A stretch of DNA of 64,000 nucleotides from a virus (lineage: Duplodnaviria > Heunggongvirae > Uroviricota > Caudoviricetes): positions 84,000 to 147,999 of IMG/VR virus record IMGVR_UViG_3300013902_000001. One strand, written 5' to 3'. Position 1 is the first letter of the stretch. Each line of letters begins with the position of its first letter. The notes beneath the pieces are model-generated. The model was not told the origin of the DNA. It saw only the letters and a list, made by a program, of their open reading frames with translations, and made no database searches. The position numbers and the translations under genes were made by a program. Below are positions 10,509 through 35,865 of the stretch, in pieces.

Positions 10509-10787
10509 CTACATCTTGCATCCACACCCCATTACAATATCTTTACCGGGGTATTTAACTAACTCTCCCGTCTTGATATTTATTCCCCTGCCACTATCGC
10601 ATCTATCAGTATCCTCATTATATAATGGGCATTCTCTACATATTTTCATTCGAGCTTCTGACAACTCGTCTTCTCGACCTAATGCCCAATTTGTATAGCC
10701 TTCGGCTATTTCCTTAACTTGATGAAAAGAGTTTATTCCAAACATATTAAATTTCAATAACGCATTTTTTTCCAGATAAAAGATCAT
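10509..10787 (-). CDS. Cys-rich zinc-ribbon protein
   Basis: CRECPLYNEDTDRCDSG...MGCGCKM. Confidence 0.35.
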   Translation of the reverse strand: MIFYLEKNALLKFNMFGINSFHQVKEIAEGYTNWALGREDELSEARMKICRECPLYNEDTDRCDSGRGINIKTGELVKYPGKDIVMGCGCKM

Positions 10788-10929
10788 TATACAATGATTT
10801 AATAATTGGATCTTTTGCGTGATCGTATTCTATTTGATAGCGTTTACGCTGATCCTCTGATATGCATTGTAGTATAACATATTTAGGAGTTCTTTTCTTC
10901 CGAAAAAGATTTTTAAGAAATTTAATCAT

Positions 10930-12341
10930 TCTTCTTTTGCATTAATAAAGGTAGTGCAAACATTGACGATTCTTTACTCAACCAGTTTGCAGCCTGATCG
11001 TAGTTTTTAATACTTCTAAAAAACTCGGTCATGTTATTATCCCAATTACCATCTTTAATATAATGCTTCTATGCATATTTAAGCATCTCTGGAGTTAATT
11101 TCTAAGTTGACTTTGTAAATCCGTAATAATCCTTTAACTAACTACCCCTAGCGGATAATTCTGTATTATTACCGTGTTCTAAGTAATATTGCATCTCCGG
11201 AGATTCTGCAGAGACATCAAATCCCTTTGCTTTCGTTTTAGGTGTGTGCGCTACATGGTCCATTTCATGAGAAATAACCTATGAATAATTATCCCGTATT
11301 TGAGGCACTTTAGAGTTGTATAATACAATAGGTTCGTTTATAACTCCAGGAGCACTAATTGTATGTGCTCCACCCTCACGAGTTGATGTAATTTCAAGCT
11401 ATTTCTAAAATGCAGCTTTTTGTGCATCGGGTAAGTCAGGACGAGTGGCCTTTATAAATGCATCAAATGACTCTTTATTAGCTATATCATAAGTTTTAGG
11501 TGACTATGTAGATAGCCGTGCTTTATGATATTCCAATGGACTTTTACCAAAATATTTTACCCACTTTGACCGAGCTAAAGGCTTTAATAGTCGGATTCCT
11601 TTCGAAATTCCCTGTATAGCTAAATCAAATGGTCCACTTAAAACAGTTCCTGCTACAACAAATTCTCCAACAGGATCCGTTCCAGACAGTGGTTGATCCT
11701 GCTCATATAATTTCTAAACCTTATCAAAAGCTTCTGGATCTTTAGGCAGTGGCCCAGAAGGATTCTAATATTTCTTTATTTTATTATCAAAAAATTCTAA
11801 GTAATTCATCATTTTATCCTCCAACTAGGCCCAATAACAACTCCCACTCCAATCTCTAATCCGTGATTTACTTGCATAGGATTAGTAGGGGTAGCGTTTA
11901 ATCCGTAACCTATATAAGGACCAACAGTAATATCCCACCCAAACTTTTTAGGCTTCTAAACAATCAACTCATTTTTCTGCAAATAAGAATGATTAAGCCT
12001 AACAGAATCAATATCAGAATTATAGCCATGGAAATTAATCTTTAGAGTTGTTTTGGTAGAATCAGTAGCTATAGTGTCTATATACTCCTTATAATCAATA
12101 GGAATATCTTTTACATAGACGGTATCACCTTTTTCTGTTACATAGACTGTATCAATCCGATCAATATACTTGATCTTAGTCTTTTCTTTAATAACTTCCT
12201 AGTCGATAAAAACAGTGTCGTGAACCTAGATATATTCTATATTAGATCCAGGTTTATTACAAGCAGGAATATTTACTAAAATCCCAATTCCAAACCCTAT
12301 AAATAGAATTAAGATATATTTCCAAATCTTTTTAAAATCCA
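10930..12341 (-). CDS. Membrane-anchored protein with an HExxH metallopeptidase-like motif, TAG-interrupted; possibly a lysis or peptidase function
   Basis: The reverse complement of about 12339 reads MDFKKIWKYILILFIGFGIGILV (N-terminal TM segment). The reverse complement near 11230-11270 reads ISHEMDHVAHTP (HExxH). No ORF of at least 60 aa appears in the track because TAGs break it up. Confidence 0.35.
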
Positions 12342-15634: not shown

Positions 15635-15934
15635 GTTGCTTCGCCTGGATTCGAACCAGGACTCCAAGTTTTCTTCACCACTCTATATTACTATAGCCAT
15701 TTCTGTTGTGGTCCGGACTTTGTCTTCACCTTACTTTTACAAGCTTAGGTGTCTCGTATAAAGTCTCTACACTCGGCTTAATAGCCTAGCTCGGCGTTGT
15801 CCCTAAGGAGTTTCACCGACTTAGCGAGATTTACATCTGAAAGTTTCCTACCAGAGCTCCTGTCTGTAACTTACTGAAAATCAAGTAGTTACAAGGAAGA
15901 GACTTGTTTGCTAACCCTTACAATTCACGAAGCA
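15635..15934 (-). tRNA. Candidate amber-suppressor tRNA (anticodon CUA) interrupted by a group I-like intron of about 225 nt. By plus-strand coordinates the exons are 15898-15934 and 15635-15672
   Basis: Minus-strand 3' end: T-arm CCTGG-TTCGAAT-CCAGG, then acceptor CGAAGCA plus A. The exactly complementary 5' acceptor strand TGCTTCG lies 300 nt upstream (plus-strand cgaagca at 15928-15934). Anticodon stem CAAGT/ACTTG. 5' loop part CUCU, 3' loop part AAA. Only the split CUCU|...G|AAA satisfies the group I rule (exon ends in U, intron ends in G), giving loop CU-CUA-AA. A GGAG candidate internal guide sits about 40 nt into the intron. U1:A72 is a Gln-like feature. Confidence 0.5.
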
Positions 15935-26363: not shown

Positions 26364-26651
26364 TCTTCACCTTAATCAGAGTCAGTTCGCCGCTGTATGA
26401 TAGATAAAAGAATGACTGTTTAGTGTTGAGCTGTAGGTCATTATTAGTGAAGATTTAAGAACCTAGCACCCTAATCACACATAAAGTAAACTGTACAAGT
26501 AGGGTAACGCATATCAATTATAGGAATAACTGCCCGTGTGAGCTGTAGGTTATTTTTAGTGCTAGGTTCTTTTTTATGAAATTATGGGTATCTAATAAAG
26601 CTGACAACTAGGAAAGACTAACAGGTTACCAGATCCTTAAAACTGGTTTTT

Positions 26652-26994
26652 GCTGCTGTGGCGAAATCGGAAGTACGCATCAGACTTATTATTGAGTGCT
26701 TTAAGAGAAATCTTAGAAGTAGAATTCCCCTAACAAACCGAAACCTCGTTTATGGCGACATAAACTTTGGCGAGGGCTCTCTAAATTGAGGTAATTTTTT
26801 GATCGAGAATATCTACCTCATAAATGGCGTAGAGGCCATACAGGGAATACCTATACTGATAAAGTGTTATCAGCATGGTAAAGAAATGGTCCAGACTACA
26901 AAATCTCTCTGAGATTGCTCGTATCAAAGCGAGTGTGGTTTCGAAAATCTGAGGGTTTGAAAAAACCGTGTGGGTTCAAGTCCCACCAGCAGTA
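26652..26994 (+). tRNA. tRNA-Leu(UAA) with a group I intron of about 256 nt (26688-26943) between U34 and A35
   Basis: Acceptor GCTGCTG/CAGCAGT. D-arm GCG-AAATCGGAAGTA-CGC (Leu type II-like). Anticodon stem TCAGA/TCTGA. Loop CTT|intron|AAAA: only this split has the exon ending in U and the intron ending in G. Long variable arm GGGTTTGAAAAAACCGT. T-arm GTGGG-TTCAAGT-CCCAC. Confidence 0.65.
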
Positions 26995-27367
26995 CAAAAG
27001 TTTTTTCATATATATTAAGGTATAAACTTATTGTAGGGGAAGTTTCTCGTTTTATAACCTATCCCTCTTTACGAATTGAAACCGACTAAAGTAAGGTTAT
27101 AAGTGGGTTTCAAAAACTTGACTTCCCGGGAGTCTTTACTGCTAAGTTATCCTAGATGGTTATAAGCAGATTTTTAACTGTTTCCGAGGCAAATAAAAGA
27201 TAGTATATAATATCTTTTATGGTTGGGGCGCGGCGAATAATAAGTTTTCCGGACCTTATTATTCGGATAGGAAACAGTTTTTGCCTATTAGATTAAAGGC
27301 AGATCGTTAGCTTTTCAAGCTAAAGAACTAGGATCGTTACCTAGATAGGCTACTAATTACAATTATT

Positions 27368-33149: not shown

Positions 33150-33290
33150 GGCTCCTTAGCTCAGCTGGATAGAGCAACAGCCTTCATAGTGATAATAACA
33201 CTTAAAAATTGCGTGTAAAAGGTTAATATAGGTTCGATTCCTATTACATGCCTAAGCTGTGGGTCGAAAGTTCAAATCTTTCAGGAGTCA
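33150..33290 (+). tRNA. tRNA-like gene (cloverleaf intact) interrupted by a 67-nt insertion in the anticodon loop. Arg(CCU) if spliced at a U/G junction
   Basis: Acceptor GGCTCCT/AGGAGTC. D-arm GCTC-AGCTGGATA-GAGC. Anticodon stem ACAGC(33177-33181)/GCTGT(33256-33260). Loop residues CT|...G|CCTAA. Variable GGGTC. T-arm GAAAG-TTCAAAT-CTTTC. The insert 33184-33250 contains a T-arm-like ATAGG-TTCGATT-CCTAT. Confidence 0.4.
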
Positions 33291-33308
33291 CTAACTATTT
33301 ATAGGAAT

Positions 33309-35486: not shown

Positions 35487-35865
35487 TTTTATGGGCCTAG
35501 TTGGTTTTGATTCACATTAGTGAAATATAAATCTGTCAGGATGGTAACGCCCTACGTTGTTGTGTATATCCTTCAATTTTTTTACATTTCAACAATACGT
35601 TACGAAAACAATAAATGCAGATAGCTACAAAGCTTTCCGTGCTGCTGCTTAATTAGCAAGCACCTGGTAATGCTCAACCAAGGAACATAATGAGCATGGC
35701 AGTTTCCTCGTTCTTAAAATGAGGTGGTGGAGGTGGATATCAAACCGATATCCCCGAAGAGATAAAACACTCTTAAAAAGGTTATGACAGTAAAGAATTT
35801 ATATTAAACGGTGCTGAAGACGACAGTTCGATTCTGTCTAGGTCCACATTAAATTTTTAATCAAT

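What the first reader, a model, noticed from the sequence alone, without database searches (positions are those of the whole stretch)
26652..26994. tRNA-Leu(UAA) with a group I intron of about 256 nt at the classic U34/A35 position
All tRNA-Leu type II elements are present: GCG/CGC D-stem with a large D-loop, a 17-nt variable arm GGGTTTGAAAAAACCGT forming a GGTTT/AAACC hairpin, and a GTGGG-TTCAAGT-CCCAC T-arm. The anticodon loop is split as CUU | 256 nt | AAAA. The intron follows a U and ends in G, exactly like the ancient cyanobacterial/plastid tRNA-Leu(UAA) intron. I do not know of this intron being reported in a phage tRNA gene, so the presence of this and a second intron-split tRNA suggests a lineage of tRNA-targeting introns in this phage.
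Basis: partly seen in the sequence, partly recalled or inferred. Interest (0 to 1): 0.6.

Follow-up and report, generated by a model that had tools for sequence, protein, structure and literature searches.

The report
Self-splicing intron splits phage tRNA-Leu gene
A ~172-kb phage carries a leucine tRNA gene interrupted in its anticodon by a 256-base group I (self-splicing type) intron, one member of a large, apparently undescribed lineage of such introns in phage tRNA genes, whose core has an unusually reduced helix and so escapes the standard detector.

Summary
The joined exons give a clean 88-nt type II tRNA.

The insert is a group I intron of IC3-like architecture:
- U·G at the 5' splice site in P1, and a terminal G.
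- A P3/P7 pseudoknot, P8, J8/7 and P9.0/P9.
- Strong covariation across 12 homologues: 90% of cells paired against about 40% in slid controls.

Rfam RF00028 does not detect it. A covariance model built only from cyanobacterial tRNA-Leu intron cores picks out this intron (E 3e-5) and a second one in the window. Sister phage introns do pass RF00028.

The reason for the miss is a divergent P4-P6 domain. P4 has only 2 Watson-Crick pairs, next to a long invariant J3/4.

More than 25 phage contigs, including Lak megaphages, carry relatives in Leu(UAA), Lys(UUU), Asn and amber-suppressor tRNA(CUA) genes. Their guide sequences are retargeted to each exon, and one relative carries an HNH-like ORF.

The papers I could search report phage introns only in protein genes, or as unclassified short tRNA "introns". 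I rate this a new variant of a known kind. Splicing itself is untested.

The parts
26652..26687 (+). 5' exon of tRNA-Leu(UAA): acceptor 5' strand, D-arm, anticodon stem 5' strand, and loop C32 U33 U34
   Evidence: ARAGORN intron mode and joined-exon test; sequence
26688..26943 (+). Group I intron, 256 nt, without an ORF, IC3-like with a reduced P4 ('W-type')
   Evidence: Covariation on 12 homologues. Cyanobacterial-core CM hit. Profile HMM built without the window sequence, E 7e-48. Only 43- and 48-aa ORFs overlap it.
26944..26994 (+). 3' exon: A35 A36 A37 A38, anticodon stem 3' strand, 17-nt variable arm, T-arm, acceptor 3' strand, discriminator A. No CCA is encoded.
26684..26697 (+). P1: exon ACUU (26684-26687) pairs with the internal guide GAGU (26694-26697). 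U26687·G26694 is the wobble pair at the 5' splice site.
   Evidence: Sequence. Across the family the guide changes with the exon: ACUU/GAGU in Leu and Lys hosts, CUCU/GGAG in tRNA(CUA) hosts.
26699..26719 (+). P2 hairpin with a GAAA tetraloop (L2, 26707-26710)
26725..26729 (+). P3 5' strand UUCCC. It pairs with GGGAA at 26843-26847, forming a pseudoknot with P7.
   Evidence: 100% of cells paired; 4 of 5 pairs show compensatory changes. RNAalifold predicts the helix independently.
26730..26737 (+). J3/4, CUAACAAA: unusually long (8 nt) and nearly invariant in the subfamily
26738..26775 (+). P4-P5 arm.
- P4 has only 2 Watson-Crick pairs (26738-39 with 26774-75).
- J4/5 is GAAA and J5/4 is CGA, giving tandem G·A/A·G plus an A·C pair that is G·U in other members.
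- P5 is CC/GG.
- P5a is 6 bp (26748-53 with 26760-65).
   Evidence: The N-N' pair is always Watson-Crick (CG, AU or GC). The 146/174 pair is A·C, G·U or A-U. P5a has 6 of 6 pairs with compensatory changes.
26776..26828 (+). P6 (GCU 26776-78 with GGC 26826-28; no covariation available) enclosing P6a (26787-93 with 26814-20)
   Evidence: P6a: 7 of 7 pairs with compensatory changes. P6 is assigned by analogy with Azoarcus and cyanobacterial introns (inference).
26832..26838 (+). P7 5' strand: G26832, bulged A26833, then GGCCA. It pairs with UGGUC-C at 26887-26892. This is the guanosine-binding helix.
   Evidence: 100% of cells paired. The window's own U-A to C-G change is compensated, and L135 has an independent compensated change. 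Some cyanobacteria show the same GGCC/GGGUC variant.
26848..26880 (+). P8: UACC/GGUA base, a CCUAUAC...GCAUGG internal loop resembling the 11-nt GAAA receptor, and an inner 7-bp stem
   Evidence: A GAAA L2 co-occurs with the receptor-like P8; the 3 members with GCAA, GUAA or GCGA in L2 lack the receptor.
26881..26891 (+). J8/7 (AAGAAA) followed by the P7 3' strand UGGUC
   Evidence: It aligns to AAGgGA-GgGUC of the cyanobacterial core model.
26894..26943 (+). P9.0 (GACUAC 26894-99 with GUGGUU 26935-40) enclosing P9 (26902-07 with 26911-16) and P9a (26918-22 with 26929-33), then UC and the terminal G26943

Best explanation
The region 26652-26994 is a functional phage gene for tRNA-Leu(UAA). It is interrupted between U34 and A35 by a 256-nt group I intron that has no ORF.

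Proposed mechanism:
1. The precursor is transcribed and the intron folds into an IC3-like ribozyme.
2. The last exon bases ACUU pair with the guide GAGU (P1), placing the U34·G wobble pair at the active site.
3. A free guanosine bound in P7 (the G-C pair next to the bulged A) attacks the 5' splice site.
4. The terminal G26943 then enters the same pocket.
5. U34 attacks the 3' splice site and the anticodon loop CUUAAAA is sealed. The tRNA's own anticodon stem (UCAGA/UCUGA) holds the exons together.

A GAAA L2 docking into the receptor-like P8 probably clamps the fold.

What is shown: the tRNA, the splice boundaries, the conserved and covarying group I helices, homology of the core to cyanobacterial tRNA-Leu introns, and membership in a widespread phage lineage.

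What is inferred: the chemistry; autonomy from proteins, which is in doubt because P4 is reduced to 2 pairs; and origin by homing or retargeting, since relatives sit in other tRNAs with matching guides and one carries an HNH-like ORF.
For: tRNA and boundaries:
-.

Structure:
- 70 pairs, 90.2% of cells paired against 37-45% in slid controls.
- 43 pairs with changes on both sides against 16-20 in slid controls.
- Covariation score 0.464 against <0.1, with 0 of 500 shuffles reaching it.
- RNAalifold independently recovers P2, P3, P4, P5, P5a, P6a, P8, P9.0, P9 and P9a.

Core homology:
- Model R1 was built from 22 cyanobacterial tRNA-Leu intron 3' domains.
- In 64 kb it finds exactly two strong hits: 15671-15773 (40.4 bits, E 9e-8) and 26826-26947 (29.7 bits, E 3e-5). 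The next hit is at E 0.5.
- R1 scores 19 introns in the phage loci searched at 30-47 bits.

Sister introns sharing the GUCCAGACUACAA...AUCU 3' element:
- They pass RF00028 gathering: L022 at 54.4 bits and L016 at 54.3 bits.
- Cyanobacterial controls score 65-91 bits.
- The window's second intron scores 42.5 bits, E 1e-9.

Selection on this copy:
- P7 carries a compensated double change.
- The gene is identical in two independent assemblies.

Tertiary covariation:
- L2 GAAA co-occurs with the P8 receptor.

Mobility:
- The guide covaries with the exon.
- L032 carries an HNH-like ORF in the P1 loop of a Leu(UAA) intron at the same site.
Against: - RF00028 gives no hit at all for this intron, even on 291 nt at E<=10. 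It also gives none for the subfamily member L011.
- P4, normally 6-7 bp and part of the catalytic scaffold, has only 2 Watson-Crick pairs here. No partner was found for the invariant J3/4. Unassisted self-splicing is therefore not assured.
- P6 has no covariation support.
- An alternative local hairpin, AUGGC/GCCAU (26824-26839), competes with P6 and P7 in this copy.
- No intron-less allele and no spliced transcript could be found.
- E-values from R1 are rough because calibration was shortened.
Confidence: 0.87

Rival explanations
1. It is a decayed group I intron that can no longer splice, so the tRNA-Leu gene is a pseudogene. The reduced P4 would be a sign of that decay.
For: There is no RF00028 hit. 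P4 has only 2 bp. There is no homing endonuclease ORF.
Against: - The reduced P4 with its invariant J3/4 is shared by at least 13 diverged introns (65-72% identity). These sit in different phages and different tRNAs.
- Covariation is maintained in every other helix. That is a pattern of purifying selection, not decay.
- This copy carries compensated changes in P7.
- The exons are intact and score as a tRNA.
Confidence: 0.06
2. It is a group I-derived intron that needs a protein cofactor, either phage- or host-encoded and maturase- or CYT-18-like, to compensate for the vestigial P4. The ribozyme would be real but not autonomous.
For: The P4-P6 scaffold is weakened. Protein-dependent group I introns are established in fungal mitochondria (general knowledge; PMC4275181 was listed).
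Against: - No candidate protein was identified.
- The tandem G·A pairs and the longer J3/4 could compensate structurally (inference).
- The family occurs in very different phages, from Lak at 26% GC to this one at about 33% GC, so any cofactor would have to be widespread.
Confidence: 0.2
3. The insert is an unrelated structured RNA or mobile element (for example LOOT RNA) or a protein-spliced tRNA intron, and not a group I intron.
For: LOOT (RF03000) is the only Rfam family hitting the insert, at 25.7-29.5 bits, E 0.004-0.006.
Against: - The LOOT score is far below its gathering score of 46.4. The match rests on the P8 receptor hairpin and on two generic hairpins (P9, P9a), and LOOT's large second hairpin is absent.
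- The insertion site is 34/35, not the 37/38 site of protein-spliced introns, and there is no bulge-helix-bulge motif.
- The full set of group I helices covaries, and the core matches the cyanobacterial model.
Confidence: 0.02

Closest known systems
[quoted passage not shown] 1990, Kuhsel et al. 1990)
   Same: - Same host gene and same site: CUU/a...g/AAAA between U34 and A35.
- Same order of elements: P1 UUGAG, P2 with a GAAA loop, J4/5 GAAA, P7 AGAGNC..., P8 UACC...GGUA, J8/7 AAGARA, and a long P9.0 closing P9 just before the terminal G.
- A covariance model of the cyanobacterial 3' domain aligns end to end.
   Different: - P4 is 2 bp instead of 6 (CUCAGG/CCUGAG).
- The conserved GCAAUCCUGAGCCAA block is absent.
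- J3/4 is 8 nt instead of 3.
- P8 carries a receptor-like internal loop.
- Overall sequence similarity is marginal (nhmmer E about 0.003).
- RF00028 scores the cyanobacterial introns at 65-91 bits and gives no hit here.
- The host is a phage, and the closest relatives sit in other tRNA species.
Azoarcus pre-tRNA-Ile(CAU) group I intron (IC3)
   Same: A small intron without an ORF in an anticodon loop. An L2 GAAA paired with an 11-nt receptor in P8. P9.0 flanks P9. (The Azoarcus sequence and structure are from memory; the 2026 cryo-EM paper PMC13168695 was listed.)
   Different: Azoarcus has a 7-bp P4 and a 3-nt J3/4. No direct alignment to Azoarcus was made here.
Phage tRNA introns of the same lineage with a canonical P4 (IMG/VR contigs L016, L022, L007, L010, L017, and this window's own tRNA(CUA) intron at 15673-15897)
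   Same: The P7'-P9.0-P9 block (AUAGUCCAGACUACAACAUCU...GAGUAGUAAG) is near-identical. They sit in anticodon loops of phage tRNAs, several of them in Leu(UAA) at the same site.
   Different: They keep a 6-7 bp P4 and are recognised by RF00028 (54 bits for L016 and L022; 42.5 bits for the window's second intron).
'Enigmatic' tRNA introns of Lak megaphages (Devoto et al. 2019) and of jumbo phages (PMC13037316)
   Same: These are interrupted tRNA genes in large gut phages that use alternative codes. Lak genomes do carry a homologue of this intron in their tRNA-Leu(UAA).
   Different: The introns those papers list are about 90 nt long, sit in Tyr, Phe, Gly and Thr genes, were found with eukaryote-mode tRNAscan, and were left unclassified. 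'Group I' does not appear in the supplementary files that were searchable, one of which was cut when stored. They resemble the 67-nt insert at 33150-33291 in this window, not this intron.
[quoted passage not shown]
   Same: Anticodon-loop group I introns. Some are too divergent for RF00028.
   Different: Those surveys covered bacterial and archaeal genomes only, not phages.

Membership tests
Group I intron (general definition / Rfam RF00028) | The 5' splice site follows a U that forms a U·G wobble with an internal guide sequence (P1) | tested here: met
   U26687·G26694 within ACUU/GAGU. The guide switches to GGAG where the exon is CUCU.
Group I intron (general definition / Rfam RF00028) | Terminal guanosine (omega G) at the 3' end of the intron | tested here: met
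   G26943. It aligns to the omega G column of the cyanobacterial core model.
Group I intron (general definition / Rfam RF00028) | P3-P7 pseudoknot with P8 nested inside it, J8/7, and a P7 G-C pair next to a bulged base (the G-binding site) | tested here: met
   P3, P7 and the base of P8 are 100% paired, with compensatory changes. G26832-C26892 with bulged A26833 is seen directly in the sequence. Ligand binding itself cannot be tested here.
Group I intron (general definition / Rfam RF00028) | P4-P6 domain with a regular P4 helix (about 5-7 bp) and a short J3/4 | tested here: not met
   There are only 2 Watson-Crick pairs plus tandem G·A pairs, and J3/4 is 8 nt. P5, P5a and P6a are present and covary.
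Group I intron (general definition / Rfam RF00028) | Score at or above the RF00028 gathering threshold (50 bits) | tested here: not met
   No hit at E<=10 on 291 nt or on 3 kb. Positive controls: cyanobacteria 65-91 bits, sister phage introns 54 bits.
Group I intron (general definition / Rfam RF00028) | Guanosine-dependent self-splicing | not testable with these tools
   This needs in-vitro transcription and splicing, or RNA-seq junction reads.
Cyanobacterial/plastid tRNA-Leu(UAA) intron family | Insertion between U34 and A35 of tRNA-Leu(UAA) | tested here: met
Cyanobacterial/plastid tRNA-Leu(UAA) intron family | A recognisably homologous catalytic core | tested here: met
   R1, built from cyanobacterial sequences only: 29.7 bits, E 3e-5, model positions 1-112 of 112
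Cyanobacterial/plastid tRNA-Leu(UAA) intron family | Closest relatives are other tRNA-Leu(UAA) introns of that family (orthology) | tested here: not met
   The best matches are phage introns, in Leu(UAA), in Lys(UUU) (L103) and in tRNA(CUA) (L009). Cyanobacterial introns match only at nhmmer E about 0.003. No phylogeny was made.
LOOT RNA (RF03000) | Score at or above gathering (46.4 bits), with all hairpins present | tested here: not met
   25.7-29.5 bits. The second hairpin is missing. The match covers P8, P9 and P9a.
Protein-spliced (bulge-helix-bulge) tRNA intron | Position 37/38 or a BHB motif at the exon-intron junctions | tested here: not met
   The insertion is at position 34/35. The junctions lie in P1 and after P9.0 of a group I fold.

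The most novel reading that the evidence does not exclude
The 'W-type' introns are a distinct natural structural subclass of group I ribozymes. In them P4 has collapsed to two pairs and a long invariant J3/4 takes over its scaffold role.

The lineage is specialised on the anticodon loops of phage tRNAs. It is notably common in amber-suppressor tRNA(CUA) genes of phages that recode TAG, and it also sits in decoding tRNAs such as this Leu(UAA).

Under this reading, splicing acts as a timing or conditional switch on tRNA supply and on the code change. Alternatively it shields the tRNA gene or its transcript from anticodon-directed nucleases. Either way the intron would be more than a neutral selfish element.
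Probability: 0.15. Interest if true: 0.8.

Novelty: new variant of a known kind. Interest (0 to 1): 0.6.

Why it matters
Group I introns in tRNA-Leu(UAA) are a textbook case in cyanobacteria and plastids. For phages, a 2014 review states that all introns seen to date sit in protein-coding genes, despite the many phage tRNA genes (PMC3984707). Later papers on Lak and jumbo phages left their tRNA "introns" unclassified.

This locus, together with the more than 25 relatives recovered here, shows four things:
- A mobile, retargetable lineage of group I introns lives in phage tRNA genes.
- Standard annotation (tRNAscan or ARAGORN defaults, RF00028) misses both the tRNA and the intron. Phage tRNA repertoires, including suppressor tRNAs used to infer recoding, are therefore under-counted.
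- A conserved natural ribozyme variant with a 2-bp P4 exists. It is a ready-made test of how much of the P4-P6 scaffold is needed.
- The same family interrupts amber-suppressor tRNAs in TAG-recoded phages. This gives a concrete and testable link between splicing and code switching.

Tried and rejected
- **RF00028 on the window and on sub-windows.** No hit. I did not take this as evidence of absence, because it also misses L011 and both Lak introns, while it scores the controls.
- **LOOT RNA.** Sub-threshold, and explained by the P8 receptor hairpin.
- **Search for an intron-less allele.** The junction CAGACTTAAAATCTGAGGGTT gave nothing in IMG/VR.
- **Search for the variable-arm/T-arm string.** Nothing in JGI metagenomes.
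- **Second metagenome scan with a gapped W-type pattern.** Nothing. The pattern engine or the collection may be limiting.
- **GenBank phages.** Only Lak phages match the Leu intron. Nothing matches the second intron.
- **Alternative partners for the P4 5' strand.** I tried shifted registers with GGCUCW, pairing with AUAAAUGG, and pairing with the tRNA variable arm GUUUG. All were rejected, because the N/N' covariation fixes the register and the other segments are invariant or not conserved in the hosts.
- **Alternative hairpin AUGGC/GCCAU in place of P6/P7.** RNAalifold predicts it. It has no compensatory support and is broken in L135, while P7 has two independent compensated changes.

Full report
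**Observation**

ARAGORN's default run and Rfam at gathering thresholds see only the neighbouring tRNA-Glu (27282-27353) and a tmRNA.

With introns allowed, ARAGORN calls tRNA-Leu(taa) at 26652-26995 with a 256-nt intron after gene position 36. When the two exon halves are joined, they are called an 88-nt type II tRNA-Leu(UAA).

The intron runs 26688-26943. It follows U34 and ends in G, so the anticodon loop reads CUU|...|AAAA. The 343-nt gene is identical in two independent ~172-kb assemblies, ENA ERZ27300209 and Logan SRR1747037, so it is not an assembly artefact.

**What the insert is**

RF00028 gives no hit, even at E<=10 on a 291-nt slice. The only Rfam match is a sub-threshold LOOT hit.

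Homologues settle the question. GenBank phages match only in Lak megaphages. Two conserved motifs then retrieved more than 25 IMG/VR phage contigs with related inserts in tRNA anticodon loops.

I aligned twelve of them (A1) and tested an explicit group I model:
- 70 pairs, with 90.2% of cells paired against 37-45% when the partners are slid.
- 43 pairs with changes on both sides, against 16-20 in slid controls.
- Covariation score 0.464 against less than 0.1, with 0 of 500 shuffles reaching it.

The P3 pseudoknot (26725-29 with 26843-47) is 100% paired, with 4 of 5 pairs compensatory. P5a, P6a, P9 and P9a covary heavily.

P7 is 100% paired. The window's own GGCCA/UGGUC differs from the family's GACUA/UAGUC by a compensated change. 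The G-C pair next to a bulged A is in the canonical place (G26832, A26833, C26892).

RNAalifold recovers the same nested helices on its own.

L2 is GAAA, and P8 carries a CCUAUAC...GCAUGG loop resembling the 11-nt receptor. Across the family, a GAAA L2 goes with the receptor. The three members with GCAA, GUAA or GCGA in L2 lack it.

**Link to bona fide group I introns**

Real cyanobacterial tRNA-Leu(UAA) introns were fetched. They score 65-91 bits with RF00028, which serves as a positive control. Two phage sister introns sharing the same 3' block (L022, L016) pass gathering at 54 bits. The window's second intron scores 42.5 bits, E 1e-9.

A covariance model built only from 22 cyanobacterial 3' domains (P7-P8-P7'-P9.0-P9-omega G) finds exactly two strong hits in the 64-kb window. 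One is 15671-15773 (40.4 bits, E 9e-8). The other is 26826-26947 (29.7 bits, E 3e-5), aligned end to end with the terminal G on G26943. The next hit is at E 0.5. The same model scores 19 introns in the phage loci searched at 30-47 bits.

**Why RF00028 fails**

This "W-type" subfamily has a divergent P4-P6 domain. Canonical relatives have a 6-7 bp P4 and a 3-nt J3/4.

Here there are only two Watson-Crick pairs: an invariant C-G and a pair that is always CG, AU or GC. These are followed by tandem G·A/A·G pairs and by a position that is A·C, G·U or A-U. An invariant 8-nt J3/4, CUAACAAA, sits alongside.

The feature is conserved over at least 13 introns of 65-72% identity. I therefore read it as a selected variant, not as decay. 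Whether it still splices without help is open.

**Lineage and mobility**

Relatives sit in these genes:
- Leu(UAA) at 34/35: L008, L011, L032, L010, L022, L007, L016, L017 and Lak.
- Lys(UUU): L088, L103.
- tRNA(CUA) at 35/36: L066, L070, L118, L124, L009, and the window's own second intron.
- Asn(GUU): L012, L021.
- One RNR-like coding sequence: L018.

The internal guide tracks the exon: GAGU for ACUU, GGAG for CUCU. L032 carries a 164-aa HNH-like ORF in the P1 loop of a Leu(UAA) intron at the same site. The window's intron has no ORF.

Its nearest relatives are phage introns, in Leu(UAA) genes but also in Lys(UUU) and tRNA(CUA) genes. Cyanobacterial introns are only marginally similar overall. 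The shared site with cyanobacteria may therefore be ancestral or reacquired. No phylogeny was made.

**Mechanism**

I infer standard two-step group I transesterification, as set out under Best explanation. The anticodon stem would serve as the exon clamp. Only the anatomy is shown; the chemistry is inferred.

**Literature**

- A 2014 review states that all phage introns observed so far are in protein genes (PMC3984707).
- Devoto et al. 2019 reported "enigmatic" introns of about 90 nt in Lak tRNA-Tyr, Phe, Gly and Thr genes. They left these unclassified and did not list the Leu gene.
- A 2026 jumbo-phage survey repeats this.

Within the searchable library I found no description of group I introns in phage tRNA genes. 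That library is incomplete.

**Verdict**

The intron is a new variant of a known kind: a new host class and a reduced-P4 architecture. Interest is 0.6.

Noticed in passing
window 15635-15934 (minus strand); intron 15673-15897: A second split tRNA. It is an amber-suppressor tRNA(CUA) with a 225-nt group I intron between U35 and A36 (loop CUCU|...|AAA). It has a canonical P4. It scores 42.5 bits (E 1e-9) with RF00028 and 40.4 bits with the cyanobacterial-core model.
   Followed up: partly
window 1-22000 (minus-strand genes): Reading TAG as sense raises ORFs of at least 150 aa from 7 (1780 aa in total, longest 348) to 20 (6300 aa, longest 1179). The region 22000-64000 barely changes. The phage appears to recode TAG in one gene module. 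The intron-split suppressor tRNA lies inside that module.
   Followed up: partly
IMG/VR loci L066, L070/L074/L113, L118, L124, L009/L109: In several unrelated phage contigs the W-type intron sits in a tRNA whose spliced loop reads CUCUAAA, giving anticodon CUA. Amber-suppressor tRNAs therefore seem to be a frequent host of this intron lineage. These anticodon assignments were made by eye.
   Followed up: partly
L001 (Lak-C1, MK250029) 1152-1885; L002 (Lak-B1): The Lak megaphage tRNA-Leu(UAA) gene carries two group I-type introns. One is 308-309 nt in the D-loop, after GGU and ending in ...UUUUUG; in Lak-C1 the cyanobacterial-core model scores it 30.4 bits. The other is 340-348 nt at U34|A35. 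The middle exon is 15 nt. Removing both gives a clean tRNA-Leu(taa). The C1 and B1 acceptor stems differ by compensatory changes. The gene is not among the introns listed by Devoto et al..
   Followed up: partly
window 33150-33291 (+): A tRNA whose anticodon loop holds an insert of about 67 nt. The insert folds into an acceptor/T-arm-like minihelix (GCGUGUA...AUAGGUUCGAUUCCUAU...UACAUGC). ARAGORN calls it Arg(CCU) i(35,67). An alternative splice choice would give anticodon UCA. It resembles the 'tRNA within a tRNA intron' described for Lak phages.
   Followed up: partly
window 35493-35849 (+): A phage-encoded tmRNA: RF00023, 49.8 bits, just above its gathering score of 47.
   Followed up: no
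L032 (IMGVR_UViG_3300028805_000076), minus strand around 10700-11500: A W-type intron of 781 nt in tRNA-Leu(UAA) at the same site. It carries a 164-aa ORF with an HNH-like motif (Pfam HNH_3, E 5e-4, below the curated cut-off). The ORF lies between the 5' splice site and the guide sequence, and its end overlaps the guide.
   Followed up: partly
window 26892-26908: The intron segment CCAGACUACAAAAUCUC (P9.0/P9 5' strands) resembles the ligated anticodon arm CAGACUU|AAAAUCUG of Leu(UAA) hosts. The segment is also conserved in introns that sit in other tRNAs. Its meaning is unknown.
   Followed up: no
L009 785-993; L109: These family members have no G at the expected terminal (omega) position (...GUAGUAC|AAACCC). 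Either the splice site is shifted or the terminal nucleotide is atypical.
   Followed up: no
L018 (IMGVR_UViG_3300045988_147517): An intron with the same 3' block lies in what reads like a ribonucleotide-reductase coding sequence (...CLLGSINLAQF after the splice site), so the lineage is not confined to tRNA genes. The core model R1, which was run over this locus, gave no hit there at E<=0.01.
   Followed up: no
L022 4991-5605: A ROOL RNA (RF03087, 296 bits) lies next to a tRNA array that holds two intron-split tRNAs in a phage contig.
   Followed up: no
window 26427-26449 and 26539-26561: A 23-nt direct repeat, TGAGCTGTAGGTYATTWTTAGTG, occurs twice in the non-coding stretch upstream of the tRNA-Leu gene. 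It may be a phage promoter or regulatory element. The 287-nt spacer at 26995-27281 before tRNA-Glu is also non-coding.
   Followed up: no
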